From Escherichia coli (lineage in GTDB: Bacteria > Pseudomonadota > Gammaproteobacteria > Enterobacterales > Enterobacteriaceae): DNA of 64,000 nt. A program made the position numbers and the translations under genes. How positions within the stretch are numbered: the stretch's first letter is position 1; each line of letters opens with the position of its first letter. Under the pieces are notes generated by a model. It was given only the letters and a program-made list of their open reading frames with translations. It had not been told where the DNA came from and ran no database searches. Where the stretch lies: assembly GCF_001677475.2 (NCBI RefSeq), contig NZ_CP015229.1. The stretch is one strand, 5' to 3'. Positions 3,627 through 47,053 of the stretch are shown in pieces.

Positions 3627-3635
3627 ACAATTTCC

Positions 3636-4412: not shown

Positions 4413-4421
4413 GATTATTCC

Positions 4422-18683: not shown

Positions 18684-20027
18684 TTACGCGACGCTTTCTT
18701 CTTTATCTTTAGCGTCAGGCAGTTTTGGCGAAAGGGCGGTGGCCTTGCTGTCGATCCGGGTCACCAGCAGCTGGTCGATACGGTAGTTATCGATATCCAC
18801 CACTTCAAATTTGTAGCCGGCGAATTTCACCGAATCGGTGCGTTTCGGGATCTTACGCAGCATAAACATCATAAAGCCGCCGATGGTTTCGTAGTTGCCC
18901 GACTGCGGGAACTCGTCAATATCCAACACGCGCATGACGTCGTCAATCGGGGTGCCGCCGTCAATCAGCCATGAGTTCTCATCACGGGCGACAATCTGCT
19001 CTTCCAGCCCCTGACCGACCAGATCGCCCATCAGCGTGGTCATCACGTCGTTGAGGGTGATGATCCCCACTACCAGCGCGTACTCGTTCATGATCACCGC
19101 GAAGTCTTCACCTGCGGTTTTAAAACTTTCCAACGCCTCTGAAAGGGTTAACGTATCCGGCACAATCAGCGTGTTGCGAATTTGTACGCCGCTGTTCAGT
19201 GCCAGGCTTTGGTTAGCCAGCACGCGGTTCAGCAGGTCTTTAGAATCGACATAGCCGATGATGTGGTCAATATCTTCATTACAGACGAGGAACTTAGAGT
19301 GCGGATGTTCCGCCACCTTATTCTTCAGACTTTGCTCATCTTCGTGGAGATCAAACCAAATCACGTTTTCACGCGGTGTCATTGAAGACGGAACGGTACG
19401 GGATTCCAGCTCAAAGACGTTTTCAATCAGCTCGTGTTCCTGTTTACGTAACACGCCCGCCAGCGCACCGGCTTCCACTACCGCGTAGATGTCATCAGAA
19501 GTGATGTCATCTTTACGTACCATTGGCAGTTTGAAAATACGGAAGATTATGTTCGCCAGTCCGTTGAAGAACCACACCAGCGGGGTGCAAACGTACAGGC
19601 AGAAGCGCATCGGGTTGATGATACGCAAAGCCACCGCTTCTGGCGCAATCATACCGATGCGTTTCGGGGTTAAATCCGCAAACAGGATAAACATGCCAGT
19701 CACTAACGAGAAAGAGAGAATAAAGCTCAGTTGCTCAGAAAGTTCTGCCGACATATAGCGGGAGAACAGGCTGTGAAAAGCTGGAGAAAATGCCGCATCA
19801 CCGACGATACCGCCGAGAATCGCCACTGCGTTCAGACCGATTTGGACCACGGTAAAGAACATGCCGGGATTTTCCTGCATATTCAGAACGCGTTGGGCAT
19901 TTATATTGCCTTCATCAGCCAGCAGTTTAAGTTTGATTTTGCGTGAGGCGGCAAGCGAGATCTCGGACATCGAGAAGAACGCACTTACAGCGATCAAACA
20001 GAGTATGACTAAAATACTGTTTAACAT
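18684..20027 (-). CDS. ytfL: UPF0053 inner-membrane protein YtfL (CNNM/CorC-type with CBS domains)
   Basis: 447-aa ORF; synteny. Confidence 0.9.
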   Translation of the reverse strand: MLNSILVILCLIAVSAFFSMSEISLAASRKIKLKLLADEGNINAQRVLNMQENPGMFFTVVQIGLNAVAILGGIVGDAAFSPAFHSLFSRYMSAELSEQLSFILSFSLVTGMFILFADLTPKRIGMIAPEAVALRIINPMRFCLYVCTPLVWFFNGLANIIFRIFKLPMVRKDDITSDDIYAVVEAGALAGVLRKQEHELIENVFELESRTVPSSMTPRENVIWFDLHEDEQSLKNKVAEHPHSKFLVCNEDIDHIIGYVDSKDLLNRVLANQSLALNSGVQIRNTLIVPDTLTLSEALESFKTAGEDFAVIMNEYALVVGIITLNDVMTTLMGDLVGQGLEEQIVARDENSWLIDGGTPIDDVMRVLDIDEFPQSGNYETIGGFMMFMLRKIPKRTDSVKFAGYKFEVVDIDNYRIDQLLVTRIDSKATALSPKLPDAKDKEESVA

Positions 20028-20204
20028 ATCTTATCCGACCTTTCAGGCCAGATCCTCGGAAGGGGAAGTTGATTAATTTGTGTGAAATACACATTGAAAG
20101 CCGATTCGAAGAAAGTGAACCGGCATTTTCAGTGGCTAGTATAGCGTAAGGTACTGTAAAGCCGCCAGAGTGTTAAAATTCAGACTGCTGATAAATGAAA
20201 AACT

Positions 20205-20295
20205 GGCTGATGCGCTATGCCGATCAGGCCTACGCAGTCCCCACAATATATTGATTTTGGACGATTTTGTAGGCCTGGCAAGGCGTTTACGCCGC
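20205..20295. repeat. REP/BIME palindromic repeats
   Basis: GCTGATGCG...GATCAGGCCTAC and GTAGGCCTGG...GCCGCATCCGGCA units. Confidence 0.7.
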
Positions 20296-20349
20296 ATCCG
20301 GCATAAACAAAACGCACTTTGTCAACAATCTACATTTGTACCCGTAACG

Positions 20350-20988
20350 CTATGCTTCCGGCGGCAGACAGACGCCAATTCCGCCAATTCCACAGTAACC
20401 ATACGGGTTTTTATGCAGATATTGCTGGTGGTCATCTTCGGCATAATAAAACGGTGTGGCGTTAGCAATTTCCGTGGTGATGCGACGATCGTCATCGGCG
20501 GCAAGCATCGCTGCCTGAAAACGTTCCAGACTGGCGCGAGCTGCGGCATCCTGTTCTGGGGTCAGCGGATAAATCGCTGAACGATACTGCGTGCCGTGGT
20601 CATTGCCCTGACGCATTCCCTGGGCGGGATCGTGATTCTCCCAAAATACTTGTAGCAACTGTTCATAGCTGATGACGGAAGGATCGTAAACAATGCGTAC
20701 CGCTTCGGCATGACCCGTATCACCGGAGCACACTTCCCGATAAGTCGGATTTGGCGTATAGCCGCCGGTATAGCCTGCGGCGGTGCTGTAAACGCCGGGT
20801 AACTGCCAGAACAGACGCTCCACACCCCAGAAACAACCCATCGCAAAAATGGCAATCTCCATTCCGTCAGGTACATTGGTCATTGAGTGACCGTTGACTG
20901 TATGCAGCGTGGCTACGGGCATCGGGGTGTTACGTCCAGGCAGGGCATCGGCGGGGGAAACCAGATGCTTTTTATCAAATAAACTCAT
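20350..20988 (-). CDS. msrA: Peptide methionine sulfoxide reductase MsrA
   Basis: 212-aa product with the GCFWG active-site motif; start at MSLFDKK inside the longer track ORF. Confidence 0.92.
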
Positions 20989-21151
20989 GGTATCGCTCTC
21001 CCGAAAATCGGTCATTGGGGTTAAGGTTGTAACAAGAGGCGTATTTGCACACAATAACCGCCGTGAATAGGTCTAAAGTAAAACATAAGAAATATTTGGG
21101 GTTTAGTCTGCTTTTTAATCCATATTACTGGATTTTTGTTAAGCCGTTTAA

Positions 21152-26703
<5,552 letters not shown>

Positions 26704-26705
26704 CA

Positions 26706-27047
26706 ATGCGAATATTTGTCTACGGCAGTTTACGCCACAAACAAGGCAACAGTCACTGGATGACCAATGCCCAGTTACTGGGCGATTTCAGTATCGATAA
26801 CTACCAGTTGTATAGCCTGGGCCACTATCCAGGCGCAGTTCCGGGGAACGGAACAGTACACGGTGAAGTTTATCGTATTGACAACGCCACGCTGGCCGAA
26901 CTTGATGCCTTGCGCACCAGGGGCGGTGAATACGCGCGCCAGTTGATTCAGACGCCGTACGGGAGTGCATGGATGTACGTTTATCAACGACCCGTCGATG
27001 GATTAAAGCTAATTGAAAGCGGCGACTGGTTAGACAGGGATAAGTAA
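26706..27047 (+). CDS. ytfP: Gamma-glutamylcyclotransferase-like protein YtfP
   Basis: 113-aa ORF directly after tamB. Confidence 0.85.
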   Translation: MRIFVYGSLRHKQGNSHWMTNAQLLGDFSIDNYQLYSLGHYPGAVPGNGTVHGEVYRIDNATLAELDALRTRGGEYARQLIQTPYGSAWMYVYQRPVDGLKLIESGDWLDRDK

Positions 27048-27057
27048 TAATAAAAGC

Positions 27058-27084
27058 ACGCCACCTTCGGGTGGCGTTGTTTTA
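27058..27084 (+). terminator. Rho-independent terminator after ytfP
   Basis: ACGCCACC-ttcg-GGTGGCGT hairpin followed by TGTTTT. Confidence 0.7.
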
Positions 27085-27371
27085 TGCGATGTATCTCGCG
27101 ATTTTTTTTGTAACTTTCCCATCTTTTGCTTTTCTCTCCGAGCCGCTTTCCATATCTGCAATCGCATAAAAAACTCTGCTGGCGTTCACAAATGTGCAGG
27201 GGTAAAACGGGGGCACGCTTTGAACGGTGAGTATGAGTGAGGTCGGCTAACTTCCAGCAAGTGGCTATGAACAGCAAAATGGTGGTCGAGTTTAGCTTGT
27301 TCTTACCGTTCAAGCCTTTCAACTGCTGAAAATAATAATAGTGGAGTAGATAGTTTATAAATTGCGGGCAT

Positions 27372-27410
27372 AAAAAAACCCTTACTAACCGAAGCCCGGT
27401 GTTCAGGGTT
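27372..27410 (-). terminator. Rho-independent terminator after ppa
   Basis: AACCCT...AGGGTT hairpin followed by a T7 run on the minus strand, just 3' of the ppa stop. Confidence 0.65.
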
Positions 27411-27426
27411 ATTACGCTAGAAGAAC

Positions 27427-27957
27427 TTATTTATTCTTTGCGCGCTCGAAGGAGGCAACGATTTCAGCTTTAGCGGCTTCTGCGTTTTCCCAACCTTCAA
27501 CTTTCACCCACTTGCCTTTTTCGAGGTCTTTGTAGTGCTCGAAGAAGTGAGCGATCTGCGCTTTCAGCAGCTCTGGCAGATCGTTAACGTCTTTAATGTG
27601 ATCGTATTCTTTGCTCAGCTTGGTGTGCGGAACAGCAATCAGTTTCGCATCTTCACCGGCTTCGTCGGTCATTTTCAGAACGCCAACCGGACGGCAGCGG
27701 ATCACAGAACCAGGCTGCAGCGGGTACGGAGTCGGGACCAGTACATCAACCGGGTCACCGTCCAGAGACAGGGTGTGGTTGATGTAACCGTAGTTGCACG
27801 GATAGAACATCGCGGTGGACATGAAGCGGTCAACGAACAGTGCGCCGCTCTCTTTGTCGATTTCGTATTTGATCGGATCTGCGTTAGCCGGGATCTCAAT
27901 AACAACGTAGATGTCTTCCGGCAGATCTTTACCCGCAGGGACGTTGAGTAAGCTCAT
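27427..27957 (-). CDS. ppa: Inorganic pyrophosphatase
   Basis: 176-aa ORF, family I soluble pyrophosphatase. Confidence 0.95.
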
Positions 27958-28266
27958 GTCTGTTTCCTTTAAAAATATGTGGCAAACAAGTGCCGAGTAT
28001 TATAGCCAACTCGCGCCGAATGTCTTCGCTTGTTTTCGTCTTCATTTTCCTTTTTCGCCAGTTTTAAGACGGTATGCAGAGCAGAAAAATCCATAACCGT
28101 AGCCGCATTTTTCATAGTGAGATGAAAGCGATTACAAACTTGTGATTAACGTTTTATTTACTTTTTTGAAGTGTGATGTAACGCAATCCGTTACATAACG
28201 AATTGTCTATAGTTTTTTCGCGAACATCTTTTCACCAATAATAATTACCCCGACGAGGACAACCCT

Positions 28267-28677
28267 ATGTGGAAACGCTTACTTGTAGTCTCTGCAGTCT
28301 CGGCAGCCATGTCGTCTATGGCGTTGGCCGCTCCTTTAACCGTAGGATTTTCGCAGGTCGGATCGGAATCCGGCTGGCGCGCAGCAGAAACCAATGTGGC
28401 GAAAAGTGAGGCCGAAAAACGCGGAATTACGTTGAAAATCGCCGATGGTCAGCAAAAGCAGGAAAACCAGATTAAAGCGGTACGTTCCTTCGTTGCACAA
28501 GGGGTGGATGCGATCTTTATCGCTCCGGTGGTTGCGACGGGTTGGGAACCGGTATTAAAAGAGGCGAAAGATGCCGAAATCCCGGTCTTTTTGCTCGATC
28601 GTTCCATCGATGTGAAAGACAAATCTCTCTATATGACCACTGTTACTGCTGACAACATCCTCGAAGGTAAGTTATGA
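28267..28677 (+). pseudogene. ytfQ: ytfQ 5' fragment (galactofuranose-binding periplasmic protein), truncated by an IS insertion
   Basis: Signal peptide and N-terminal 135 residues up to ...ILEGKL, then a stop created at the IS junction. Confidence 0.85.
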
Positions 28678-28765
28678 GACGACAATAACTCAGTCCGCCT
28701 GGCGCCGATTATTCTGGCCGGTTTTGTAACCTGAGTGTCATTTACATGATCCAACAGGAAATGGC

Positions 28766-30265
28766 GTGACGCTCAATACTTCTCAGGTCAGTTACTATAT
28801 GACTCAGCGTAAGAAAGGTATAACTCAGCATATCTCGGCCATGAAGGCTGGTATCTCAGTCCGTTCTGGTCGTCGGATCGAAAAAGGAGAGTGGGCAAAA
28901 AACAGTGTTCGGCACTGGCGCACACGCAAAGATCCTCTGGAAGCTGTGTGGGACAGCATGCTTGTTCCTCTGTTGAAAGAGAGGCCGGCTCTGACACCAA
29001 CAACTCTACTGGAGATGCTACAGGATAAATATCCCGGCCAGTACCCCAACAGCCTTCGAAGAACAATGCAACGGCGGGTTCGCGAATGGAAACTACAGTA
29101 TGGTACAGAGCAGGAGGTCATGTTCCGCCAGCAACATCAGCCCGGCCTGCGAGGCCTGTCGGACTTTACTGAACTGAAAGGTGTAGTTGTCACCATCGCC
29201 GGTAAGTTGTTGGCGCATAAGTTGTATCACTTCCGTCTGGAATGGAGCCACTGGAGCTGGATGCGGGTTGTTCTGGGTGGTGAGAGCTTCTCTGCTCTGG
29301 CTGAAGGCCTGCAGGAAGCCCTCGGACAACTGGGCGGAGTGCCGGTAGAACATAAAACGGACAGCCTGAGGGCAGCATGGAAACAACAGGGCGAAGATGG
29401 ACGCCGCGAGCTGACTGAGCGTTATGCTACTCTCTGTCAGCACTACGGAATGCAGGGCGTACACAATAATGCCGGTCGGGGCCACGAAAATGGCTCGGTT
29501 GAAAGTGCCCACGGACATCTGAAAAGGCGTATCTGTCAGGCGCTGATACTGCGGGGCAGTAACGACTTCAGCACCATAGAAGAATATCAGGCCTTCATCA
29601 CTCAGCAGGTTATGCGGCACAACCGTAACAATCAGGATCTGGTCAAGGAAGAACGTCTTCATCTGAAACCGCTGCCGCTTCGTCGCAGTGCTGACTATGA
29701 TGAGCTGACTGTGAGGGTTAGTCGCAGCAGTACCATCAATGTGAAGCACGTCGTCTACAGCGTACCTTCCCGGCTTGTAGGTCAACTGTTACGGGTCAGG
29801 TTATGGGACGATCGTCTGAGCTGTTACGTTGGCAGCAGCGAGGTCATGAGCTGCCCTCGCGTCAGACCAGAAAAAGGGAAGACGCGGGCCCGTCGTATCG
29901 ACTTCCGACATGTGATCGACAGTCTGGCAAAAAAGCCCGGTGCGTTCTGCCATGCAACGCTGAGAAATGACATCCTGCCGGACGATGAATGGCGGAGGCT
30001 GTGGCGTCGCTTATGTAATCATCTGGAGCCCGATATGGCAGGAAGGCTGATGGTACATGCCCTGAAACTGGCTGCAGGATACGACGATATCTCAGTCGTG
30101 GCAAAAGGTATGGAGCAGATGCTGAATACCCCGGGAAACGTGGATCTGCACCGGCTGATGCGCTTCCTGGGTATAAAAGAAAAGGCGTTGCCGGTAGTCA
30201 ATGTGATACAGCATAACCTGAGCAGTTATGAGCAACTACTGCGTGGCAAGGGAGGTTCGCAGTGA
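28766..30265 (+). CDS. istA: IS21-family transposase IstA
   Basis: 499-aa ORF (GTG start) with an N-terminal HTH-like region; followed by overlapping istB. Confidence 0.8.
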   Translation: MTLNTSQVSYYMTQRKKGITQHISAMKAGISVRSGRRIEKGEWAKNSVRHWRTRKDPLEAVWDSMLVPLLKERPALTPTTLLEMLQDKYPGQYPNSLRRTMQRRVREWKLQYGTEQEVMFRQQHQPGLRGLSDFTELKGVVVTIAGKLLAHKLYHFRLEWSHWSWMRVVLGGESFSALAEGLQEALGQLGGVPVEHKTDSLRAAWKQQGEDGRRELTERYATLCQHYGMQGVHNNAGRGHENGSVESAHGHLKRRICQALILRGSNDFSTIEEYQAFITQQVMRHNRNNQDLVKEERLHLKPLPLRRSADYDELTVRVSRSSTINVKHVVYSVPSRLVGQLLRVRLWDDRLSCYVGSSEVMSCPRVRPEKGKTRARRIDFRHVIDSLAKKPGAFCHATLRNDILPDDEWRRLWRRLCNHLEPDMAGRLMVHALKLAAGYDDISVVAKGMEQMLNTPGNVDLHRLMRFLGIKEKALPVVNVIQHNLSSYEQLLRGKGGSQ

Positions 30266-31017
30266 GCAATATCCATCACCTTGAACATAGCCTGCGTAAA
30301 CTACGCCTGACACGAGTTGGAGCTGAATGGCACGCTCTGGAAAAACGAGCGCTGGCAGAAGGCTGGACACCATCGCGCTATCTTCTGACGCTATGCAATG
30401 AAGAACTCCTGTGGCGCGAGAGTGAAAAACTGCGTCGTTATAAAAAGGAGGCCCGGTTGCCAGTTGCCAAAACGCTGAGCGAATACGACTTCAGTCAGGT
30501 GCCGGAACTGAATGGAGCTCAGTTCCGGCAACTCTGTGAAACGACAGACTGGGTTGATGCAGGAGAAAACGTTCTGCTGTTCGGAGCCAGCGGGTTGGGG
30601 AAAAGCCATCTGGCGGCAGCGATCGTGGATGGCGTAGTAGGTCAGGGCTACCGGGCCCGGTTCTACAGCGCAGGAGAGCTGTTGCAGGAACTACGTAAAG
30701 CCAGAGCTCAGTTGAAACTGAATGAGCTGCTACTGAAACTGGATCGCTACCGGGTGATAGTGGTGGATGATCTTGGCTATGTCAAACGCGATAGTGCCGA
30801 AACGGGTGTGCTGTTCGAGTTAATAGCGCATCGCTATGAACGTGGGAGCCTGGTGATAACCAGTAACCATCCGTTCAGCATGTGGGGCAGCATCTTCGTG
30901 GATGAGACTATGGCGGTGGCTGCGGCAGACAGGCTGATCCATCACGGATATATGTTCGAACTGAAAGGGGAAAGCTACAGGAAAAAGACAGCGAAGGCAG
31001 TAACAAGCGCGACTTGA
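30262..31017 (+). CDS. istB: IS21-family helper ATPase IstB
   Basis: 251-aa ORF with Walker A GASGLGKSHLA; start overlaps the istA stop. Confidence 0.85.
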   Translation: MSNIHHLEHSLRKLRLTRVGAEWHALEKRALAEGWTPSRYLLTLCNEELLWRESEKLRRYKKEARLPVAKTLSEYDFSQVPELNGAQFRQLCETTDWVDAGENVLLFGASGLGKSHLAAAIVDGVVGQGYRARFYSAGELLQELRKARAQLKLNELLLKLDRYRVIVVDDLGYVKRDSAETGVLFELIAHRYERGSLVITSNHPFSMWGSIFVDETMAVAAADRLIHHGYMFELKGESYRKKTAKAVTSAT

Positions 31018-31084
31018 TGTCGCCCTGAAGGGTGCGGCCAGTATAGTTGGCGCGAGTCGGCAAAACTAGTTGACGTCTAATAGT

Positions 31085-31639
31085 AAGTTGATTGGTGACT
31101 GGCTGGTAAAAGAAGTCAACGGCAAACCGTGTAACGTGGTTGAGTTGCAGGGGACGGTTGGGGCAAGCGTTGCCATTGACCGTAAAAAAGGCTTTGCCGA
31201 AGCCATTAAGAGTGCGCCAAACATCAAAATCATCCGCTCACAGTCCGGTGACTTCACCCGTAGTAAAGGCAAAGAAGTGATGGAGAGCTTTATCAAAGCG
31301 GAAAACAACGGCAAAAACATCTGCATGGTTTACGCCCATAACGACGACATGGTGATTGGCGCAATTCAGGCAATTAAAGAAGCGGGACTGAAACCGGGCA
31401 AAGATATCCTCACGGGTTCCATTGACGGCGTGCCGGATATCTACAAAGCGATGATGGATGGCGAAGCGAACGCCAGCGTTGAATTGACGCCGAACATGGC
31501 AGGCCCCGCTTTTGACGCGCTGGAGAAATACAAAAAAGACGGCACTATGCCTGAAAAGTTGACCCTGACCAAATCCACCCTTTACCTGCCTGATACTGCA
31601 AAAGAAGAGTTAGAGAAGAAGAAAAATATGGGGTATTGA
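31085..31639 (+). pseudogene. ytfQ: ytfQ 3' fragment
   Basis: Reading frame resumes at ...KLIGDWLVKEVNGKPCNVVELQG... and runs to the native stop; the track ORF begins at a TTG inside the IS end (31070). Confidence 0.85.
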
Positions 31640-36678: not shown

Positions 36679-38052
36679 ATGCGCATTCATATTTTAGGAA
36701 TTTGTGGCACGTTTATGGGCGGTCTGGCGATGCTGGCGCGCCAGTTAGGCCATGAAGTAACGGGTTCGGACGCCAATGTGTATCCGCCGATGAGCACCTT
36801 ACTTGAGAAGCAAGGCATTGAACTGATTCAGGGTTACGATGCCAGCCAGCTCGACCCGCAGCCGGATCTGGTGATTATTGGCAACGCCATGACCCGTGGA
36901 AATCCGTGTGTGGAAGCGGTACTGGAAAAAAACATCCCTTATATGTCAGGTCCGCAGTGGCTGCACGATTTTGTGCTGCGCGACCGCTGGGTGCTGGCCG
37001 TTGCCGGTACACACGGCAAAACCACCACGGCGGGAATGGCGACCTGGATTCTGGAACAGTGTGGTTACAAACCGGGATTTGTGATCGGCGGTGTGCCGGG
37101 GAACTTTGAGGTTTCGGCGCGTCTGGGCGAAAGCGACTTCTTTGTTATCGAAGCGGATGAGTATGACTGCGCCTTCTTCGACAAACGCTCTAAATTTGTC
37201 CATTACTGCCCGCGTACGCTGATCCTCAACAACCTTGAGTTCGATCACGCCGATATCTTTGACGACCTGAAAGCGATCCAGAAACAGTTCCACCATCTGG
37301 TGCGTATCGTTCCGGGGCAGGGGCGTATTATCTGGCCGGAAAACGACATCAACCTGAAACAGACCATGGCGATGGGCTGCTGGAGCGAGCAGGAGCTGGT
37401 GGGCGAGCAAGGTCACTGGCAGGCGAAAAAGCTGACCACCGATGCTTCCGAATGGGAAGTCTTGCTGGATGGCGAAAAAGTGGGCGAAGTGAAATGGTCG
37501 CTGGTAGGCGAACATAATATGCACAATGGCCTGATGGCGATTGCGGCGGCTCGCCATGTTGGTGTAGCGCCGGCAGATGCCGCTAACGCGCTGGGTTCGT
37601 TTATTAATGCTCGTCGCCGTCTGGAGTTGCGTGGTGAAGCGAATGGCGTCACGGTATATGACGATTTTGCCCATCACCCGACGGCGATTCTGGCAACGCT
37701 TGCGGCGCTGCGTGGCAAAGTTGGTGGTACGGCGCGCATTATTGCTGTGCTGGAGCCGCGTTCGAATACCATGAAAATGGGGATCTGCAAAGATGATTTG
37801 GCACCGTCACTAGGTCGTGCCGATGAAGTCTTCCTGCTGCAACCGTCGCATATTCCGTGGCAGGTGGCAGAAGTGGCAGAAGCCTGCGTTCAGCCTGCAC
37901 ACTGGAGCGGCGATGTGGATACGCTGGCAGATATGGTGGTGAAAACCGCTCAGCCTGGCGACCATATTCTGGTGATGAGCAATGGCGGTTTTGGTGGGAT
38001 CCATCAGAAACTGCTGGATGGACTGGCGAAGAAGGCGGAAGCTGCGCAGTAA
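36679..38052 (+). CDS. mpl: UDP-N-acetylmuramate:L-alanyl-gamma-D-glutamyl-meso-diaminopimelate ligase (murein peptide ligase)
   Basis: 457-aa Mur-ligase-family ORF divergent from fbp. Confidence 0.93.
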
Positions 38053-38075
38053 TTCGGCTTCAGCATGATATAGCA

Positions 38076-38108
38076 TTGCCGGATAAGGCGTTTACGCCGC
38101 ATCCGGCA
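38076..38108. repeat. REP element
   Basis: TGCCGGATAAGGCGTTTACGCCGCATCCGGCA palindromic unit. Confidence 0.75.
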
Positions 38109-38134
38109 AACCATACTCACATCAACAACGAAAA

Positions 38135-38686
38135 TTACCCTTCGTTCTCCGCTAACTCGCGCAGATACTGGAAAATCTGGCGTGCGGATTTCGGCGGCTT
38201 ATTCCCTTCTTTCTCTTTCTTCGCGTTGCGGATCAGAGTACGCAGTTGCTGACGATCGGCATCGGGCCACAGATTTAATACTTCAGCGATGGCGTCATCA
38301 CCTTGATCGATCAGACGATCGCGCAGGTTTTCCAGTTTATGGAACAGTACCACCTGCTGGTTGTGACGGTTTTTCAGATTATCCAGCGCCTGACGGATCG
38401 GTTCAACATCGCGCTGGCGCAGCATCTTACCGATGAGCTGCAACTGGCGGCGGCGACCTTCCATCTTAATACGCTGGGCGAGCTCAATAGCCGCGCGCAG
38501 ATCCGCATCTAACGGGATCTTATCCAGCGCGTTTTTCCCCAGATCAACAATTTCCGCGCCAAGGCGTTTTAGCTCTTCGGCATCGCGTTTAATTTCACTT
38601 TTACTGACCCAGATAATTTCATCGTCTTCGTCTTCGATGTCATCACCGGGAACGTCGTCGAGCCAGTCTTCGGGCTGCTTAGTCAT
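38135..38686 (-). CDS. yjgA: Ribosome-associated protein YjgA (DUF615)
   Basis: 183-aa acidic/basic ORF; synteny. Confidence 0.9.
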
Positions 38687-38779
38687 CTCAGGCTCCTTAA
38701 AAAAAGAGGCTAATGTTACCAGTTAAGATGCGCACTGAAAAACGGTTCTCTGTTAGACTTCAGAGAAACTCTCTACATT

Positions 38780-40132
38780 ATGGCACTTGCAATGAAAGTA
38801 ATCTCTCAAGTTGAAGCGCAGCGCAAGATTCTGGAAGAAGCAGTTTCCACTGCGCTGGAGTTGGCCTCAGGCAAATCGGACGGTGCGGAAGTTGCCGTCA
38901 GCAAGACCACCGGCATTAGCGTAAGCACGCGTTATGGTGAAGTGGAGAATGTTGAATTCAATAGCGATGGCGCGCTGGGGATCACTGTTTATCACCAGAA
39001 CCGCAAAGGTAGCGCATCGTCTACCGATTTAAGCCCGCAGGCCATTGCCCGCACCGTACAGGCGGCGCTGGATATTGCCCGTTATACCTCGCCAGATCCC
39101 TGTGCCGGCGTGGCAGACAAAGAGCTGCTGGCCTTTGACGCACCGGATCTCGACTTGTTCCACCCTGCGGAAGTTTCCCCTGATGAAGCCATTGAACTGG
39201 CGGCCCGCGCTGAACAGGCGGCATTGCAGGCGGACAAACGCATCACCAATACCGAAGGTGGCAGCTTTAACAGCCACTACGGTGTCAAAGTTTTTGGCAA
39301 CAGCCACGGCATGTTGCAGGGTTACTGCTCTACGCGTCATTCGCTCTCCAGCTGTGTAATTGCTGAAGAAAATGGCGATATGGAGCGTGATTACGCCTAC
39401 ACCATTGGTCGTGCGATGAGCGATCTGCAAACGCCAGAGTGGGTTGGGGCCGACTGTGCTCGCCGTACTTTATCGCGCCTGTCACCGCGTAAACTCTCCA
39501 CCATGAAAGCGCCGGTCATTTTTGCCAATGAAGTGGCAACCGGGCTTTTTGGGCATCTGGTGGGGGCGATAGCGGGTGGATCGGTTTACCGTAAATCTAC
39601 CTTCCTGCTGGATTCGCTGGGTAAACAAATTCTGCCGGACTGGCTGACCATTGAAGAGCATCCGCATCTGCTGAAAGGGCTGGCCTCTACGCCATTCGAC
39701 AGCGAAGGTGTGCGCACCGAGCGTCGCGATATTATTAAAGATGGCATTCTGACTCAGTGGCTGCTGACCAGCTACTCGGCGCGGAAACTGGGGCTGAAAA
39801 GCACCGGGCATGCGGGCGGTATTCACAACTGGCGGATTGCCGGACAAGGTCTAAGCTTCGAGCAGATGCTCAAAGAGATGGGCACCGGGCTGGTGGTGAC
39901 GGAATTGATGGGCCAGGGCGTGAGTGCAATTACCGGTGATTATTCCCGTGGTGCGGCGGGCTTCTGGGTAGAAAACGGCGAAATTCAGTATCCGGTTAGC
40001 GAAATCACCATCGCAGGTAATTTAAAAGATATGTGGCGCAATATTGTCACCGTCGGTAACGATATTGAAACACGCAGTAATATACAGTGTGGTTCTGTGC
40101 TGTTGCCGGAGATGAAAATCGCCGGGCAGTAA
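38780..40132 (+). CDS. pmbA: Metalloprotease PmbA (TldE)
   Basis: 450-aa ORF; synteny. Confidence 0.93.
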
Positions 40133-40310
40133 AAAACTGGCGCGACCTGCCGCGCTTAAACTAAAAAATTACACAAAATCATTCGCACTGCATCGAGACG
40201 GAAAGTGAATGAGAGCCGGGGAGCGTACTCGTAGTACGTGACTCGGGCGAATGAGCGTAGCCGTCGATGAGGTGGTGTGAAGGATGAAGTGTAAATAAAA
40301 AAGGAAGTGA

Positions 40311-40700
<390 letters not shown>

Positions 40701-40744
40701 TTCCTTATTTCCCTGTTGCCTGCACTCAGGTAACAGGGAACTTA

Positions 40745-41209
40745 TCATCGCAAATGATGCACCACCTGATTGCTGCTGCCGCGCCAGATCAGGGAAGGGT
40801 CTTTTAAATCCTGCACAAATTTGCCGTCGACCAGCACGTTAATCAAATCAACAACCTGCATTTGCGCAGCGTTGAGTTCGTCGAGTTTATACCCTGTCCA
40901 CACCCAGATGTCTTTACCCGGACACTCGGCGCGGATGCGTTGTACCAGTTTCAGAATATCCGGCACGTTTTGCGGATGCAGCGGATCGCCGCCGGAGAGG
41001 GAAATCCCCTGGCGTTTGATGCGAGTGTCATTCAGATCGTTAATGATCTGGTCTTCCATTGCTTTGGTAAATGGCTGACCGGAATTTACCCGCCAGGTGC
41101 TTTTGTTATAGCAACCGGGGCATTCATGAACACACCCGGAGACAAACAGGGTGCAGCGAGTGCCGGGGCCGTTGACGATGTCGACAGGATAGTACTGATG
41201 AAAGTTCAT
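40745..41209 (-). CDS. nrdG: Anaerobic ribonucleoside-triphosphate reductase activating protein (radical SAM)
   Basis: 154-aa ORF with a CxxxCxxC-type cysteine cluster. Confidence 0.93.
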   Translation of the reverse strand: MNFHQYYPVDIVNGPGTRCTLFVSGCVHECPGCYNKSTWRVNSGQPFTKAMEDQIINDLNDTRIKRQGISLSGGDPLHPQNVPDILKLVQRIRAECPGKDIWVWTGYKLDELNAAQMQVVDLINVLVDGKFVQDLKDPSLIWRGSSNQVVHHLR

Positions 41210-41349
41210 TTTCGCTTCTCAATTGACGCCATGACTGCTCTGGTGCGTACGGGCGAAGTCCCCCGATGCTACGCATTTGCCTCCTTGCGACGACAAAAAC
41301 TGGCCAGAGGCAATTCATTATGTCGGGAATCAGGAAGGGGCACGAAACG

Positions 41350-41389
41350 GTCCCCTCTCCCTTGAGGGAGAGGGTTAGGATGAGGGTGG
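41350..41389. repeat. GC-rich hairpin repeat, copy 2 (TCCCCTCTCCCTTGAGGGAGAGGGTTAGGATGAGGGTGG)
   Basis: Near-identical to the element at 31840..31879; contains a 9-bp perfect stem CCCTCTCCC/GGGAGAGGG; lies between nrdD and nrdG. Confidence 0.6.
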
Positions 41390-41394
41390 AAGGA

Positions 41395-43533
41395 TTAACC
41401 TATCTGCCCATTTCCCAAATGTTTAACGCGGCGCTTAACTTCTTCCTGCTTACCAGCGTTAAACGGACGTGCATCCGGGCTACCTAAATATCCGCACACG
41501 CGGCGAGTCACCGACACACGGGAGGCGTCATGGTTACCACATTTCGGGCAAGTGAAGCCTTTGCTGGTGCACTCGAACTCGCCAGTAAAGCCACACTCGT
41601 AGCACTCATCGATCGGCGTATTGGTGCCGTAATACGGTACATGCTGATAGCTGTAATCCCAGACATCTTCCAGCGCCTTCAGGTTGTGCTGAATGTTTGG
41701 ATACTCGCCGTAGCAAATGAAACCACCGTTCGCCAGCGGCGGGTAAGGCGCTTCAAAGTCGATCTTGTCGTACGGGTTCACCTTCTTCTCCACATCGAGG
41801 TGGAAACTGTTGGTGTAGTAACCTTTATCGGTTACGCCCGGCACCACGCCAAACTCAGCAGTATCGAGACGGCAGAAGCGGTCGCACAGGTTTTCACTTG
41901 GCGTGCTGTAGAGACTGAAACCATAACCCGTTTCTTCTTTCCACTGATCCACTGCCTGACGCAGACGTTCAACAATCGCGATACCTTTCGCGCGAAGCTG
42001 CTCGTTGTCGTAAACATGTTCGCCGCCGAACAGCGCGTTAATGGTTTCGTGGATGCCGATGTAACCCAGCGAAATAGACGCACGACCGTTTTTGAAGATT
42101 TCAGAAACGTCGTCGTCAGCATTCAGACGCACGCCACAAGCGCCTTCCATATAGAGGATCGGGGCTACGCGCGCTTTCACGCCTTCGAGACGAGCGATAC
42201 GGGTCATCAGTGCCTTACGTGCCAGCACCAGACGTTCATCCAGCAGCTTCCAGAAGGTGGCTTCATCGCCTTTTGCTTCCAGAGCAATACGCGGCAGGTT
42301 CAGGCTGATCACGCCGAGGTTGTTACGACCATCGTGGATCTGCTCGCCGTTTTCATTTTCCCACACGCCGAGGAAGCTGCGGCAGCCCATCGGGGTTTTA
42401 AACGAACCGGTGACTTTCACTACCTGATCGTAGTTCAGGATATCCGGATACATGCGCTTGCTTGCGCACTCCAGCGCCAGCTGTTTGATGTCGTAGTTCG
42501 GATCGCCTTTTTTATGGTTCAGGCCATCGCGAATCGCAAACACCAGTTTCGGGAACACCGCCGTTTTACGGTTTTTACCGAGGCCGGCGATACGGTTACG
42601 CAGGATAGATTCCTGAATCAGGCGCGACTCCCAGCTGGTGCCCAGACCAAAACCAAAGGTTACAAACGGCGTTTGACCGTTGGCGGTATGCAGGGTGTTT
42701 ACTTCGTACTCCAGCGACTGGAAGGCATCGTAGCACTCTTTGATGGTACGAGAGTTAGCGTAGCCTTCGGCGTCCGGGATGTTCCACTCTTCCGCGGTCT
42801 TGCGATGTTTGTTGTAGCTGGCGGTGACAAATGGTGCCAGCACTTCATCGATACGGTTAATGGTGGTGCCGCCATAAATATGGCTGGCAACCTGAGCAAT
42901 AATCTGCGCAGTTACAGCGGTTGCCGTAGAGATCGACTTCGGCGGTTCAATCTCGGCGTTCCCCATTTTAAAGCCCTGGGTCAGCATGCCTTTCAGGTCG
43001 ATCAACATGCAGTTGAACATCGGGAAGAACGGCGAGTAATCGAGATCGTGATAGTGAATATCGCCACGCTCATGTGCCTGCACCACGTCACGCGGCAGCA
43101 GGTGCTGGCGTGCATAGTGTTTAGCCACGATCCCGGCCAGCAGGTCGCGCTGGGTTGGAATCACCTTGCTGTCTTTGTTGGCGTTTTCGTTGAGTAACGA
43201 GGAGTTGGTCTGCTCGACCAGACCACGGATCTCCTGGTTCAGGCGACCGCGTTTTTCACGTTCAATGTCGCGATCGTGACGGTACTCGATGTAAGCACGA
43301 GCCAGTTGTTTGTATGGACCTGACATCAGCTGGTTTTCAACTGCGGTCTGGATCTCATTGATATCCACTTGGTTGCGGCCCTGCATCTGCTCGCTGACAA
43401 CCGCGGCAACAGTGGCGCAATAATCGGCATCATCGACTTCCGCTGCTTTAGCTGCACGCAGAATCGCTTCTTTGATGCGCTCTGATTTAAACGGCACTTT
43501 GCAGCCGTCTCGTTTCATCACATGCGGTGTCAT
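41395..43533 (-). CDS. nrdD: Anaerobic ribonucleoside-triphosphate reductase (class III RNR)
   Basis: 712-aa ORF with C-terminal glycyl-radical region and CxxC zinc ribbon. Confidence 0.95.
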   Translation of the reverse strand: MTPHVMKRDGCKVPFKSERIKEAILRAAKAAEVDDADYCATVAAVVSEQMQGRNQVDINEIQTAVENQLMSGPYKQLARAYIEYRHDRDIEREKRGRLNQEIRGLVEQTNSSLLNENANKDSKVIPTQRDLLAGIVAKHYARQHLLPRDVVQAHERGDIHYHDLDYSPFFPMFNCMLIDLKGMLTQGFKMGNAEIEPPKSISTATAVTAQIIAQVASHIYGGTTINRIDEVLAPFVTASYNKHRKTAEEWNIPDAEGYANSRTIKECYDAFQSLEYEVNTLHTANGQTPFVTFGFGLGTSWESRLIQESILRNRIAGLGKNRKTAVFPKLVFAIRDGLNHKKGDPNYDIKQLALECASKRMYPDILNYDQVVKVTGSFKTPMGCRSFLGVWENENGEQIHDGRNNLGVISLNLPRIALEAKGDEATFWKLLDERLVLARKALMTRIARLEGVKARVAPILYMEGACGVRLNADDDVSEIFKNGRASISLGYIGIHETINALFGGEHVYDNEQLRAKGIAIVERLRQAVDQWKEETGYGFSLYSTPSENLCDRFCRLDTAEFGVVPGVTDKGYYTNSFHLDVEKKVNPYDKIDFEAPYPPLANGGFICYGEYPNIQHNLKALEDVWDYSYQHVPYYGTNTPIDECYECGFTGEFECTSKGFTCPKCGNHDASRVSVTRRVCGYLGSPDARPFNAGKQEEVKRRVKHLGNGQIG

Positions 43534-43768
43534 GATCGCTCCATATTTTTAAGAACAGGTTATCCACAGAAATTGGGAAAGGCGTTTTCCGGTTTTTTTG
43601 TTTCGTTTTCCGGTGCTTTCCGCAATCGCCATCCGCTTATCCACAACGCCGCACCTTTTTCGTGGGGAGCTGTAGTAGCAATTATAGTCGATTAATACAA
43701 CATATTGGGTTGGGACGCATTTTAAAGTCTATATATAGTGCTTTGCATCAAGGATGTTTGAACTTTTT

Positions 43769-43782
43769 TTGATGTAGCTCAA
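43769..43782. promoter_or_regulatory. Candidate FNR binding site TTGAT-gtag-CTCAA in the nrdDG promoter region
   Basis: 9/10 match to the FNR consensus TTGAT-N4-ATCAA upstream of an anaerobically induced operon. Confidence 0.45.
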
Positions 43783-43926
43783 AGTAAAAAGCAGAGCGTA
43801 CGGATGACGGGCGCTACAGCGATATGTAAATTTTTTAATGAATTTTTTGATTATAAAATCAACAAAAACAACATACTGACAGGCAAAACCCCGGAATGAC
43901 AGGCATTACCGGGGCTTAGGGAAGAT

Positions 43927-45582
43927 TTACTTCTGTAACCACCAGACAGCCTCAAAAGGCCGTAAATTCATGGCACAGGGTTGTGGTGAGGCTTCTTCGT
44001 AGTTATGCATCACAAGCTGCCAGTTGCCGCGCATTTGCCCTGGCTGCCAGGGTTGGATCTCACGGCTAAGGTTGGCAATGACCAGCAAGGTTTGTCCCTT
44101 CCATTCACGGCGATAGCACCACAATACAGGGCTGTTTGGCAGCAGATCCTGGTAATTACCCCATGTCAGAACGGCTTCTTGCTTACGCAGTGCGATTAAC
44201 TTTTGGTAGGTGTAAAACACCGAGGACTCATCGGCCAGCGCGGCTTCTACGTTGATTTGTTGATAGTTATCGCCCAGGCCAATCCACGGTTCGCCAGCCG
44301 TAAACCCGGCATTATCGCCGTTGCTCCATTGCATGGGCGTGCGGCTGTTGTCACGGGATTTACTGGCGAGGATTGCCAATAACTCGTCGGCATCACGCCC
44401 ATCGTTGCGCAGCTCGGCAAACATATTGAGGCTCTCTACGTCGCGATAGTCAGTAATGCGCGTGAAATGCGGGTTGGTCATGCCAATCTCTTCGCCCTGG
44501 TAGATATACGGCGTTCCCTGCATGCCATGCAGCACCATCGCCAGCATTTTTGCCGCAGGCACGCGGTATTCACCTTCATCACCAAAGCGAGAAACAATGC
44601 GCGGCTGATCGTGGTTACACCAGAACAAGGCATTCCATGCCACGTTGTGCATTCCTTGTTGCCAGTGGCGGAACAATGTTTTCAACGCCACAAAGTCAGG
44701 TTTAGCCAGCGTCCATTTTTCACCGCCTGGATAATCGACCTTCAGGTGATGAAAATTAAAGGTCATCGACAATTCACTACCTGTCAGAGCCGCGTATCGC
44801 TGGCAATGCTCAAGGCTGGTGGAGGACATTTCACCTACGGTCATTAACCCGCGTGGCGTAAACACATCGCGGTTCATCTCGTGCAAAAACTCGTGTGCTC
44901 GTGGCCCGTCAGTGTAGAAGCGACGCCCGTCGCCATCCAGGTCTTCAGGGAAACGCGGGTCTTTGGAGATCAGATTCACCACATCCAGGCGCAACCCGTC
45001 GACCCCACGATCGGCCCAGAAATCACAGACTTTTTTCAGCTCTGCGCGTACCGCTGGATTCTCCCAGTTGAGATCCGCCTGTTCTGGTGCAAAGAGATGC
45101 AAATAGTACTGTTCGCTTTCCGCATGCCAGCGCCACGCACTACCGCCAAATTTTGAACGCCAGTTGTTCGGTGGCGTTTCTGGTTCGCCATCGCGCCAGA
45201 TATAAAACTGGCGGTAAGGGCTTTCTTTGTTCAGCGCCTCGCGAAACCAGGCATGTTGGGTAGAGGTATGGTTAAACACCATATCGAGAATGATACGAAT
45301 CCCGCGCGATTTTGCCTGCGTCACCAGTTCGTCAAAATCGTCCAGCGTGCCGTAGGTGGGATCAATCGCCGTATAGTTCGCTACATCGTAACCGTTATCG
45401 ACCTGCGGAGAGACATAAAAGGGGGTTAGCCAGATGGCATCAACGCCCAGTTTATGCAGATAGTCCAGGCGTTGGATAACGCCACGTAAATCGCCGGTGC
45501 CGCTACCCGTGGTGTCCTGAAAACTCTTTGGATAAATCTGGTAGATAACGCCGTTTTGCCACCAGTGGGGAAGATGAGTCAT
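43927..45582 (-). CDS. treC: Trehalose-6-phosphate hydrolase
   Basis: 551-aa GH13 ORF from MTHLPHWWQNGVIYQIYPKSF. Confidence 0.93.
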   Translation of the reverse strand: MTHLPHWWQNGVIYQIYPKSFQDTTGSGTGDLRGVIQRLDYLHKLGVDAIWLTPFYVSPQVDNGYDVANYTAIDPTYGTLDDFDELVTQAKSRGIRIILDMVFNHTSTQHAWFREALNKESPYRQFYIWRDGEPETPPNNWRSKFGGSAWRWHAESEQYYLHLFAPEQADLNWENPAVRAELKKVCDFWADRGVDGLRLDVVNLISKDPRFPEDLDGDGRRFYTDGPRAHEFLHEMNRDVFTPRGLMTVGEMSSTSLEHCQRYAALTGSELSMTFNFHHLKVDYPGGEKWTLAKPDFVALKTLFRHWQQGMHNVAWNALFWCNHDQPRIVSRFGDEGEYRVPAAKMLAMVLHGMQGTPYIYQGEEIGMTNPHFTRITDYRDVESLNMFAELRNDGRDADELLAILASKSRDNSRTPMQWSNGDNAGFTAGEPWIGLGDNYQQINVEAALADESSVFYTYQKLIALRKQEAVLTWGNYQDLLPNSPVLWCYRREWKGQTLLVIANLSREIQPWQPGQMRGNWQLVMHNYEEASPQPCAMNLRPFEAVWWLQK

Positions 45583-45631
45583 TACGTTATTCCTGCAAAT
45601 GCGAGGGGGCGCAATTGCGCCCCGAAGAAAA

Positions 45632-47053
45632 TTAAACAATGTCCAGCGTGCCCAGGCGGTATTTCCGCTGATAGATAAACGAGGTGAGTACAATCGGGAT
45701 GATGATGGCGATAGCCATTGCCAGCGCAAACACCTGCCAGTAGCTCGGTTGAATCGAGAGAATTCCCGGCAGGCCGCCTACGCCGATGCCATTCGCCATA
45801 ACGCCGTTCAGGCCGCAGAGCAATCCTGCCAGACCAGAACCAATCATCGCGCACAGCATCGGGAAGCGATATTTCAGGTTGATGCCGTACATTGCAGGCT
45901 CAGTGACCCCAAGCCAGGCGGAGATCGCCGCAGGCACGGAGATCTCGCGTTCATTGTGCTTGCGGCTGGAAATGATAATGCCTATCACGGCGGAGCCCTG
46001 AGCGATATTCGACAGCGCAATCAGCGGCCACACTGGCGTACCACCCATGCTTTGAATCATCTGCAAATCAATAGCAAGCGTGGTCTGGTGTACCCCGGTG
46101 ATCACCAGCGGGGCGTACAGGAAGCCAAACAATGCCGCGCCAATCGGAGCAAAGCTGCCGGTCATCAGGTGACGGACCGCAAAGGCAACCCCATCGCCAA
46201 TCATGCGCCCAAACGGACCAATCAGTGCATGGGCGAGGAACACCGCGAGGATCAGCGAACAGACGGGCACCACCACCAGATAGAGGTAATCCGGCACGAT
46301 GCGTTTAAGGCGAGTTTCAATAACGCCCAGCGCCAACCCGGCTAACAGTGCCGGGATCACCTGCGCCTGATAGCCCACTTTAGCGATGCTGAACATGCCA
46401 AAGTCCCACACTTCCGGCAGCTGCTGCCCGAGCAGATAAGCGTTCATCAGCTGTGGAGAAACCAGCGTTACGCCAAGCACGATACCAAGGATCGGCGTGC
46501 CGCCCATTTTTTTCACCGCGGACCAGCAAATCCCGACCGGCAGGTAGAAGAAGATCGCTTCACCGATCAACCACAGAAAATCGTAGATCGTTTGCAGGGA
46601 AGGGTACATTTGTGCCAGCGTTTGACCGTTGCTCATGGGCAAATCGCCGATCACATTGCGAAAACCGAGGATCAAACCGCCGCTAATCAACGCGGGCAGC
46701 AACGGGAAGAAGATCTCCGCGAAATGAGAGATCAACTGCTCATGCCATTTCATATTCTGCCGGGCGGCTTTTTTTACCTGCTCTTTATCAACCTGCGCCT
46801 GTCCGGTTGACGCTATCAGTGCTTGATAGTAATCACCCACGTTGGTGCCAATCACCACCTGAAATTGCCCGGCATTGGTGAAACAGCCTTTCACCATGGG
46901 GAGTTGCTCAATTTCTTTCGGTCTGGCATTGGCCGGTTGGTTGAGGACAAAGCGCAGACGAGTAATACAGTGGCTCACCGTCGCAATATTGCCGCGCCCG
47001 CCGACCAGTTCAATCAACCGATCGATATCCGTTTGGTTTATTTTGCTCATCAT
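45632..47053 (-). CDS. treB: PTS trehalose-specific EIIBC component
   Basis: 473-aa ORF with N-terminal EIIB cysteine motif and a membrane domain. Confidence 0.93.
   Translation of the reverse strand: MMSKINQTDIDRLIELVGGRGNIATVSHCITRLRFVLNQPANARPKEIEQLPMVKGCFTNAGQFQVVIGTNVGDYYQALIASTGQAQVDKEQVKKAARQNMKWHEQLISHFAEIFFPLLPALISGGLILGFRNVIGDLPMSNGQTLAQMYPSLQTIYDFLWLIGEAIFFYLPVGICWSAVKKMGGTPILGIVLGVTLVSPQLMNAYLLGQQLPEVWDFGMFSIAKVGYQAQVIPALLAGLALGVIETRLKRIVPDYLYLVVVPVCSLILAVFLAHALIGPFGRMIGDGVAFAVRHLMTGSFAPIGAALFGFLYAPLVITGVHQTTLAIDLQMIQSMGGTPVWPLIALSNIAQGSAVIGIIISSRKHNEREISVPAAISAWLGVTEPAMYGINLKYRFPMLCAMIGSGLAGLLCGLNGVMANGIGVGGLPGILSIQPSYWQVFALAMAIAIIIPIVLTSFIYQRKYRLGTLDIV

What the first reader, a model, noticed from the sequence alone, without database searches (positions are those of the whole stretch)
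27048..27426. No chpS/chpB toxin-antitoxin pair between ytfP and ppa
In K-12, as I recall, the chpSB module lies between ytfP and ppa. Here the interval is about 380 bp, bounded by two clear terminators, and the only ORF in it (track ORF 26984..27322) has no resemblance to ChpS or ChpB. This looks like an empty site, consistent with chpSB being an accessory module.
Basis: partly seen in the sequence, partly recalled or inferred. Interest (0 to 1): 0.35.

Follow-up and report, generated by a model that had tools for sequence, protein, structure and literature searches.

The report
Decayed chpB toxin remnant, not empty site
The chpS/chpB toxin-antitoxin pair is indeed missing between ytfP and ppa, but the gap holds a dead, unannotated fragment of the chpB toxin gene; about 42% of complete E. 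coli genomes and E. albertii carry the same fragment, so this is an ordinary, largely known case of toxin-antitoxin loss.

Summary
The window has ytfP (26706-27047, +) and ppa (27427-27957, -) separated by 379 bp. K-12 carries chpS-chpB in an 886-bp interval at the same place.

The interpretation "empty site, no resemblance to ChpB" does not hold. Window 27219-27349 (+) is a decayed chpB. It keeps chpB nt 19-145 (75% nucleotide identity, E 3e-16; ChpB residues 15-48 at 59% identity, E 1.5e-6) plus the last codon and stop. It has two in-frame stops and a frameshift.

Two deletions made it:
- About 312 bp, taking the operator/-10 palindrome, all of chpS and the first six chpB codons.
- An in-frame 201 bp between TGGTGG direct repeats.

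Distribution:
- The same scar is in 2297 of 5426 complete E. coli genomes. Intact chpSB is in 3100.
- E. albertii and another Escherichia species carry the scar with identical junctions.
- Intact chpSB sits at the same spot in five other genus-level lineages, so presence looks ancestral and absence derived.
- Species with no trace of chpSB at this site have only 93-188 bp here.

The presence/absence polymorphism at this locus was published in 2013 (PMC3735183). Only the remnant and its age add detail. Interest is low.

The parts
26706..27047 (+). ytfP (gamma-glutamylcyclotransferase family), left boundary gene
   Evidence: ORF list; 100% protein identity to K-12 YtfP
27058..27084 (+). ytfP intrinsic terminator (8-bp GC-rich stem, TTCG loop, T-run)
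   Evidence: Terminator scan. The hairpin is the only part of the interval conserved in nearly all Enterobacteriaceae loci.
27085..27209 (+). Retained spacer that lies between ytfP and chpS in chpSB-bearing strains. Homology to K-12 stops at GGGGTAAAACG, 49 bp before the chpS ATG.
   Evidence: blastn: 131/152 identical to K-12 over 27058-27209; 97% to the spacer of chpSB-bearing Escherichia sp. L004; alignment
27210..27218 (+). 9-nt junction filler (GGGGCACGC) at the site of deletion 1. That deletion removed the chpSB -10/operator palindrome, chpS and chpB codons 1-6 (312 bp of K-12).
   Evidence: Alignments. The same junction is in E. albertii and L005.
27219..27344 (+). chpB pseudogene fragment, equivalent to chpB nt 19-145 (codons 7-48). 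It has in-frame stops at 27248-27250 (TAA) and 27293-27295 (TAG), a frameshift between 27228 and 27245, and a 3-nt deletion.
   Evidence: blastn 75% identity, E 3e-16; tblastn 59% over ChpB 15-48, E 1.5e-6; multiple alignment with 11 chpB genes; closest to Escherichia chpB (71-74%) versus 47-59% for other genera
27345..27349 (+). Remains of the last chpB codon plus stop (GAG TAG in the window, GAA TAA in K-12; the G at 27344 completes the GAG codon). It lies just after deletion 2, a 201-bp in-frame loss of codons 49-115 between TGGTGG repeats.
   Evidence: Alignment; TGGTGG at chpB nt 140 and 341 in K-12 and other Escherichia alleles
27353..27426 (-). chpB-ppa spacer containing the ppa terminator (hairpin about 27372-27411 on the minus strand, then U7)
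   Evidence: 69/74 identical to K-12; RNA fold -17.8 kcal/mol
27427..27957 (-). ppa (inorganic pyrophosphatase), right boundary gene
   Evidence: ORF list; 99% protein identity to K-12 Ppa

Best explanation
The interval is a deletion scar of the chpS-chpB type II toxin-antitoxin operon, not a site that never held it. An ancestral Escherichia chromosome carried chpSB between the convergent terminators of ytfP and ppa. Two deletions then destroyed it. One took about 312 bp: the promoter -10/operator palindrome, all of chpS and the first six codons of chpB. The other took 201 bp in frame, chpB codons 49-115, between 6-bp direct repeats (TGGTGG). What survives is the upstream spacer, about 126 nt of the chpB 5' region and the last codon with the stop. 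These have since drifted: about 25-29% divergence from intact chpB, two nonsense codons and a frameshift. With no promoter/operator, no start codon, no antitoxin and no toxin core, the remnant is inferred to be inert. Shown: the homology, the junctions, the disruption, the distribution. Inferred: the order of events, slippage between the repeats as the cause of the 201-bp deletion, and the lack of function. Because losing chpS alone would free the toxin, the toxin was probably inactivated first or in the same event. The first deletion removes promoter, antitoxin and toxin start together, which would be a safe route.
For: K-12 has chpSB here. chpB homology in the window: blastn E 3e-16 and tblastn E 1.5e-6 with in-frame stops. 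The fragment is colinear, in the same orientation, and flanked by the same spacer sequences as intact chpB. The operator palindrome GTTATACTTTGTATAAC is invariant in 11 chpSB loci from six genus-level lineages and absent here. TGGTGG repeats sit exactly 201 bp apart at the deletion endpoints. The remnant is nearest to Escherichia chpB, 71-74%, against 47-59% for other genera. The same scar is in 2297/5426 E. coli genomes, and in E. albertii and another Escherichia species with identical junctions. Intact chpSB is in 3100/5426. chpSB lies at the same position, about 212 bp after ytfP, in Lelliottia, Enterobacter, Pseudocitrobacter, Kluyvera and isolate RIT691. Its four-fold-site divergence is 0.13-0.23 within Escherichia and 0.54-0.69 between genera, which scales with the flanking genes. 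Different, independent fragments survive in Citrobacter sedlakii (ChpB residues 63-107) and Enterobacter cloacae (ChpS residues 9-31). Loci with no trace of chpSB have only 93-188 bp between ytfP and ppa.
Against: A repaired conceptual translation of the remnant does not reach Pfam PemK_toxin at E<=1, so the identification rests on direct comparison with chpB, not on a family profile. The 9 nt at the left junction have no identifiable origin. The order and mechanism of the two deletions cannot be read from extant sequences. Lack of transcription or function was not tested. Across Escherichia species the interval is less diverged (about 13%) than four-fold sites of tamB (0.34), although it matches those of ytfP (0.13) and ppa (0.165).
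Confidence: 0.9

Rival explanations
1. A truly empty site: this lineage never had chpSB, and K-12-type strains gained the module by insertion between ytfP and ppa.
For: chpSB is variably present in E. coli. TA modules are often horizontally acquired (review PMC7167474). The ytfP-ppa gap is a hot spot that also receives esiB and larger islands.
Against: The interval contains chpB-derived sequence and the chpSB upstream spacer. It is 190-290 bp longer than the intervals with no chpSB trace in 25 other species. chpSB is syntenic across six genus-level lineages, with divergence that scales with the host.
Confidence: 0.03
2. The remnant has been co-opted. Its persistence in about 42% of E. coli and across Escherichia species would reflect a function, such as a small RNA, a small protein or an element affecting ppa 3' end formation, rather than neutral decay.
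For: The same scar persists in three species-level lineages. The interval differs by only about 13% between the window and E. albertii, while tamB four-fold sites differ by 34%. In the commoner E. coli variant a 50-aa ORF is annotated as a hypothetical protein in one genome.
Against: The local neutral yardsticks (four-fold sites of ytfP 0.13 and ppa 0.165) equal the interval's divergence. There is no Rfam match at E<=1. Promoter-like sites are at chance level, 1 found against 0.7 expected. Reading frames differ between haplotypes: a TAG stop in the window, a 1-nt deletion in others. The 50-aa ORF runs through the ppa terminator.
Confidence: 0.05
3. The fragment comes from a different mazF/pemK-family gene that landed here independently, for example from a plasmid pemK or mazF, and not from in-situ decay of chpB.
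For: It is only about 75% identical to E. coli chpB, far below the 96-98% of the flanking genes.
Against: It has the same orientation and register as chpB. It is followed by the chpB stop codon region and the same chpB-ppa spacer. It is preceded by the same upstream spacer. It is nearer to Escherichia chpB than to any other genus's chpB. The low identity fits long neutral drift.
Confidence: 0.02

Closest known systems
chpS-chpB (ChpBI-ChpBK) type II toxin-antitoxin operon of E. coli K-12 (MazEF/PemIK family; Masuda et al. 1993, cited in PMC7167474)
   Same: Same chromosomal position between ytfP and ppa, same orientation, same upstream spacer and downstream spacer. 126 nt are homologous to chpB codons 7-48, plus the terminal codon and stop.
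   Different: No chpS, no operator/-10 palindrome, no start codon, and toxin residues 49-115 deleted. The frame is broken by two stops and a frameshift. It is not a functional module.
Published three-state polymorphism of the ytfP-ppa (esiB) locus: esiB, chpBS or neither (Pastorello et al. 2013, mBio, PMC3735183)
   Same: The window is the 'both esiB and chpBS absent' state, reported in 32% of 47 genomes. Here that state (scar-type interval, including the esiB carriers) is 42% of 5426 genomes, chpSB is 57% and esiB is 3.5%.
   Different: The passage of that paper retrieved here describes the state simply as absence and mentions no chpB remnant. Here the 'absent' state, and the esiB state as seen in strain SCU-301, carry the same chpB scar.
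Decay of chromosomal TA systems in E. coli, e.g. ccdO157 (Mine et al. 2009, Genetics; discussed in PMC7167474)
   Same: A chromosomal type II TA at a conserved location, degenerating by deletion and nonsense mutation, with intact and decayed alleles coexisting in the species.
   Different: A different TA family and locus. Here the decayed allele shares its junctions with E. albertii and another Escherichia species, which implies a single old origin.

Membership tests
chpSB / MazEF-PemIK type II toxin-antitoxin module (functional member) | Intact toxin ORF with a PemK/MazF-like domain | tested here: not met
   Only ChpB residues 15-48 align, with two in-frame stops. A repaired translation gives no PF02452 hit at E<=1, whereas K-12 ChpB scores 90 bits.
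chpSB / MazEF-PemIK type II toxin-antitoxin module (functional member) | Antitoxin gene (chpS) immediately upstream of, and overlapping, the toxin gene | tested here: not met
   No ChpS match better than E 0.6 in the interval and none in the whole window.
chpSB / MazEF-PemIK type II toxin-antitoxin module (functional member) | Autoregulated promoter with the operator palindrome (GTTATACTTTGTATAAC, which includes a TATACT -10) upstream of chpS | tested here: not met
   The palindrome is invariant in 11 chpSB loci and lies inside the deleted segment here. Its operator role is inferred from conservation and position, not tested.
chpB pseudogene / decayed TA remnant | Significant sequence homology to chpB at the syntenic position and in the same orientation | tested here: met
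   blastn E 3e-16; tblastn E 1.5e-6; colinear with the K-12 flanks.
chpB pseudogene / decayed TA remnant | Coding capacity destroyed (truncations, stops, frameshift) | tested here: met
   Deletions of 312 bp and 201 bp, TAA at 27248, TAG at 27293, and a frameshift.
Naive empty site (never occupied) | The interval consists only of the two terminators and spacer found in species that lack the module, with no module-derived sequence | tested here: not met
   25 species have 93-188 bp between ytfP and ppa. The window has 379 bp, including the chpSB spacer and the chpB fragment.

The most novel reading that the evidence does not exclude
The intact and dead alleles of chpSB form an old presence/absence polymorphism. 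The scar arose once, before the radiation of the genus Escherichia. Its divergence from intact chpB is roughly three times the divergence between the E. coli and E. albertii copies of the scar. Both alleles have since persisted side by side in several species: E. coli has 57% intact and 42% scar; E. albertii and species L005 carry the scar; E. whittamii and three other species carry the intact module. Recombination has shuffled the upstream spacer between the two alleles. This would point to long-term balancing selection on carrying versus lacking a MazF-type toxin, or to repeated inter-species exchange.
Probability: 0.3. Interest if true: 0.4.

Novelty: already known. Interest (0 to 1): 0.15.

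Why it matters
It matters little for biology at large. chpSB is already known to be present in only some E. coli strains, and this locus has already been described as holding esiB, chpBS or neither.

The useful corrections are practical:
- Strains scored "chpSB-negative" at this locus are not blank. They carry an unannotated chpB pseudogene, with no feature annotated under it in 29 of the 30 listed RefSeq genomes.
- PCR or k-mer typing and pangenome tools can therefore misjudge the site.
- The direction of evolution is loss, not gain.

The shared junctions across Escherichia species give a clean marker for one old deletion allele. They also offer a small natural example of how a toxin-antitoxin operon can be lost safely, with promoter, antitoxin and toxin start removed together and the toxin core deleted.

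Tried and rejected
- Rfam scan of 26900-27500 at E<=1: no RNA family.
- Promoter scan: one weak minus-strand site, at chance level. I did not pursue a transcript.
- Pfam scan of a stop-repaired conceptual translation of the remnant: no PemK hit, so profile methods do not see the fragment.
- Search for a chpS trace: none.
- Microhomology at the left deletion junction: GGTAAA occurs both in the spacer and at the chpB start, but the 9-nt filler does not fit. I left this undecided.
- A conserved small ORF or element in the 212-bp spacer upstream of chpS: the spacer is conserved only within Escherichia. The window's 45-aa minus-strand ORF is closed by a stop at codon 3 in K-12. Rejected.
- Clustering of the upstream spacer by allele (scar versus intact): it does not cluster that way. 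The window's spacer is 97% identical to that of a chpSB-bearing species, and L005 (scar) is 96% identical to L006 (intact). The spacer therefore cannot date the polymorphism.
- Fiedoruk et al. 2015 and Ramisetty & Santhosh 2016, the papers most likely to mention chpB decay, are not in the held library. Text searches found no paper describing the remnant.
- The source organism of the window could not be identified.

Full report
**What is at the coordinates**

The window carries tamB (22924-26703, +), ytfP (26706-27047, +) and ppa (27427-27957, -).

A terminator hairpin for ytfP lies at 27058-27077 and is followed by a T-run. The ppa terminator is a bulged hairpin followed by U7 on the minus strand, at about 27372-27411. 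It folds at -17.8 kcal/mol with an unremarkable z-score, and the simple scan did not flag it.

**The interval is not empty**

A sensitive blastn of the 379 bp against the K-12 interval gave three colinear blocks:
- 27058-27209 matches the spacer between ytfP and chpS (131/152 identical).
- 27353-27426 matches the spacer between chpB and ppa (69/74 identical).
- 27219-27325 matches chpB nt 19-129 (83/111 identical, E 3e-16).

At protein level, 27242-27343 translates to VG*LPASGYEQQNGGRV*LVLTVQAFQLLKIIIV. This is 20/34 identical to ChpB residues 15-48, with E 1.5e-6 against the whole 64-kb window. A multiple alignment with eleven intact chpB genes extends the match to 27344 (chpB nt 145). It also shows that the next bases, GAG TAG, correspond to the last chpB codon and the stop.

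No trace of chpS was found, and no other ChpB-like sequence exists in the window.

**How the scar was made**

Homology to K-12 ends at GGGGTAAAACG (27209), 49 bp before the chpS ATG. It resumes at chpB codon 7 after nine unassignable bases. This first deletion corresponds to 312 bp of K-12. It removed:
- the palindrome GTTATACTTTGTATAAC, which contains a TATACT -10-like hexamer,
- all of chpS,
- the chpB start.

The palindrome is invariant in all eleven chpSB loci examined, from six genus-level lineages. I take it to be the operator/promoter core. That reading is an inference from conservation and position.

The second deletion joins chpB nt 145 to nt 347. The hexamer TGGTGG occurs at nt 140 and nt 341 of chpB in K-12 and other Escherichia alleles. 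The 201-bp in-frame loss of codons 49-115 is therefore what slippage or illegitimate recombination between 6-bp direct repeats would produce. That mechanism is inferred, not observed.

The surviving fragment has a TAA at 27248-27250, a TAG at 27293-27295, a frameshift near 27228-27245 and a 3-nt deletion. A stop-repaired translation is too short and degraded for Pfam PemK_toxin, while intact ChpB scores 90 bits.

**Distribution in E. coli**

Among 5426 complete genomes:
- The scar-specific segment (27200-27365) is present once per genome in 2297 genomes (42%). 678 of these are 95-99% identical to the window and 1619 are 90-95% identical.
- K-12 chpSB is present in 3100 genomes (57%), with 3098 covering at least 80% of the query.
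- About 29 genomes have neither.

In 29 of the 30 RefSeq genomes listed, no feature is annotated under the scar; one has a hypothetical protein there. Both states occur in familiar laboratory strains: a derivative of E. coli B has the scar and K-12 has chpSB.

Further alleles exist at this locus:
- esiB is inserted between ytfP and the scar, as seen in strain SCU-301. esiB is present in 188 genomes.
- A beta-glucoside PTS island with an integrase occupies the site in strain N50.
- A recent K-12-like partial chpB is annotated as a pseudogene in strain HH45.

**Beyond E. coli**

A scan of one genome per GTDB species with YtfP returned 80 loci. The results:
- Intact chpSB lies at the same position, starting about 212 bp after ytfP, in four other Escherichia species-level lineages, including E. 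whittamii. It is also at that position in Lelliottia, Enterobacter asburiae, Pseudocitrobacter (two species), Kluyvera genomosp. 1 and isolate RIT691.
- The scar, with the same junctions, is in E. albertii NBRC 107761 and in a further Escherichia lineage (L005).
- Different fragments survive in Citrobacter sedlakii (ChpB residues 63-107) and Enterobacter cloacae (ChpS residues 9-31). Decay has therefore happened independently more than once.
- In 25 species the ytfP-ppa gap is only 93-188 bp and keeps nothing but the terminators. That is what a site with no remains looks like.
- Many other species have unrelated insertions at this site.

**Direction and age**

Four-fold-site divergence of chpS and chpB between K-12 and other Escherichia species is 0.13-0.23. 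Against Enterobacter and Lelliottia it is 0.54-0.69. For tamB the corresponding values are 0.16-0.31 and 0.47-0.48. The module has therefore diverged roughly in step with its hosts. That fits long residence at this site and makes absence the derived state.

The remnant is closest to Escherichia chpB (71-74%) and much further from other genera's chpB (47-59%). It therefore derives from the Escherichia gene.

The scar copies of the window and E. albertii differ by 16% in the chpB-derived part and about 13% over the whole interval. This matches the four-fold sites of the adjacent ytfP (0.13) and ppa (0.165), though it is lower than tamB (0.34). I read this as neutral drift at the local rate, and found no sign of constraint.

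The scar differs from intact chpB by 26-29%. That is several times the amount accumulated since the E. coli / E. albertii split, so the pseudogene probably predates the radiation of the genus.

The upstream spacer does not sort by allele. The window's spacer is 97% identical to that of chpSB-bearing lineage L004, and L005 (scar) is 96% identical to L006 (intact). Recombination has therefore moved the alleles or the spacer between backgrounds. With these data I cannot separate long-term persistence of both alleles from inter-species exchange.

**What is known**

Pastorello et al. 2013 (PMC3735183) already described this locus as having three states: esiB (15%), chpBS (53%) or neither (32%) in 47 genomes. 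The review PMC7167474 states that chromosomal TA locations in E. coli are conserved and that some systems are degenerating, citing Fiedoruk 2015 and Mine 2009. Another study links ChpB-ChpS presence to phylogroup B1 (PMC5422975). I found no text describing the chpB fragment in the "absent" state, but the two most relevant papers are not in the held library.

**Verdict**

The absence of a functional chpSB is real and already known as a common polymorphism. The reading as an "empty site" is wrong. The interval is an old, unannotated chpB deletion scar shared across Escherichia. It is an ordinary example of TA decay, with a modest evolutionary footnote about its age.

Noticed in passing
window 28674-31084 (ytfQ starts at 28267): A 2411-bp IS21-family element interrupts ytfQ, the galactofuranose ABC transporter binding-protein gene. 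It has a 5-bp target duplication, AAGTT, at 28669-28673 and 31085-31089. It is 99.9% identical to copies annotated ISEc10 (istA 28766-30265, istB 30262-31017).
   Followed up: partly
window 20000-28700 and 38000-46000: The best identity to any of 5426 complete E. coli genomes is only 98.3% and 98.1% over two 8-kb samples. The window therefore comes from a lineage not represented in that collection, possibly a Shigella or an under-sampled E. coli group. The source was not identified.
   Followed up: partly
L087 (E. coli SCU-301) 1693-3727; L088 (strain N50); L086 (strain HH45) 1465-1626: The ytfP-ppa gap is a multi-allelic hot spot in E. coli. esiB is inserted just after a duplicated ytfP-terminator-like hairpin and upstream of the same chpB scar (esiB is in 188 genomes). 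Strain N50 has a beta-glucoside PTS island with a phage integrase. Strain HH45 has a recent K-12-like truncated chpB that PGAP calls a pseudogene.
   Followed up: partly
L024 (Citrobacter sedlakii) 3430-3562; L030 (Enterobacter cloacae DSM 26481) 5100-5168: Independent chpSB remnants exist in other genera at the same locus. C. sedlakii keeps a C-terminal ChpB fragment (residues 63-107). E. cloacae keeps an N-terminal ChpS fragment (residues 9-31) next to ppa.
   Followed up: partly
L001 (K-12) 4420-4436 and the equivalent positions in L002-L004, L006, L028, L037, L046, L064, L066, L081: The 17-bp palindrome GTTATACTTTGTATAAC, just upstream of the chpS ribosome-binding site, is invariant across six genus-level lineages while the rest of the 212-bp spacer is poorly conserved. 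It is probably the ChpS operator overlapping the -10. The spacer length is also nearly constant (211-217 bp).
   Followed up: no
L085 (E. coli 2017-19-1CC) 568-720; equivalent to window about 27267-27420: The scar variant of E. coli B (L084), L005 and E. albertii has a 1-nt deletion that removes the TAG stop. The 1619 genomes at 90-95% identity probably carry this variant. It opens a 50-aa ORF running through the ppa terminator. In the one listed genome where a feature is annotated there, it is the hypothetical protein WP_001297254.1. It is probably spurious.
   Followed up: no
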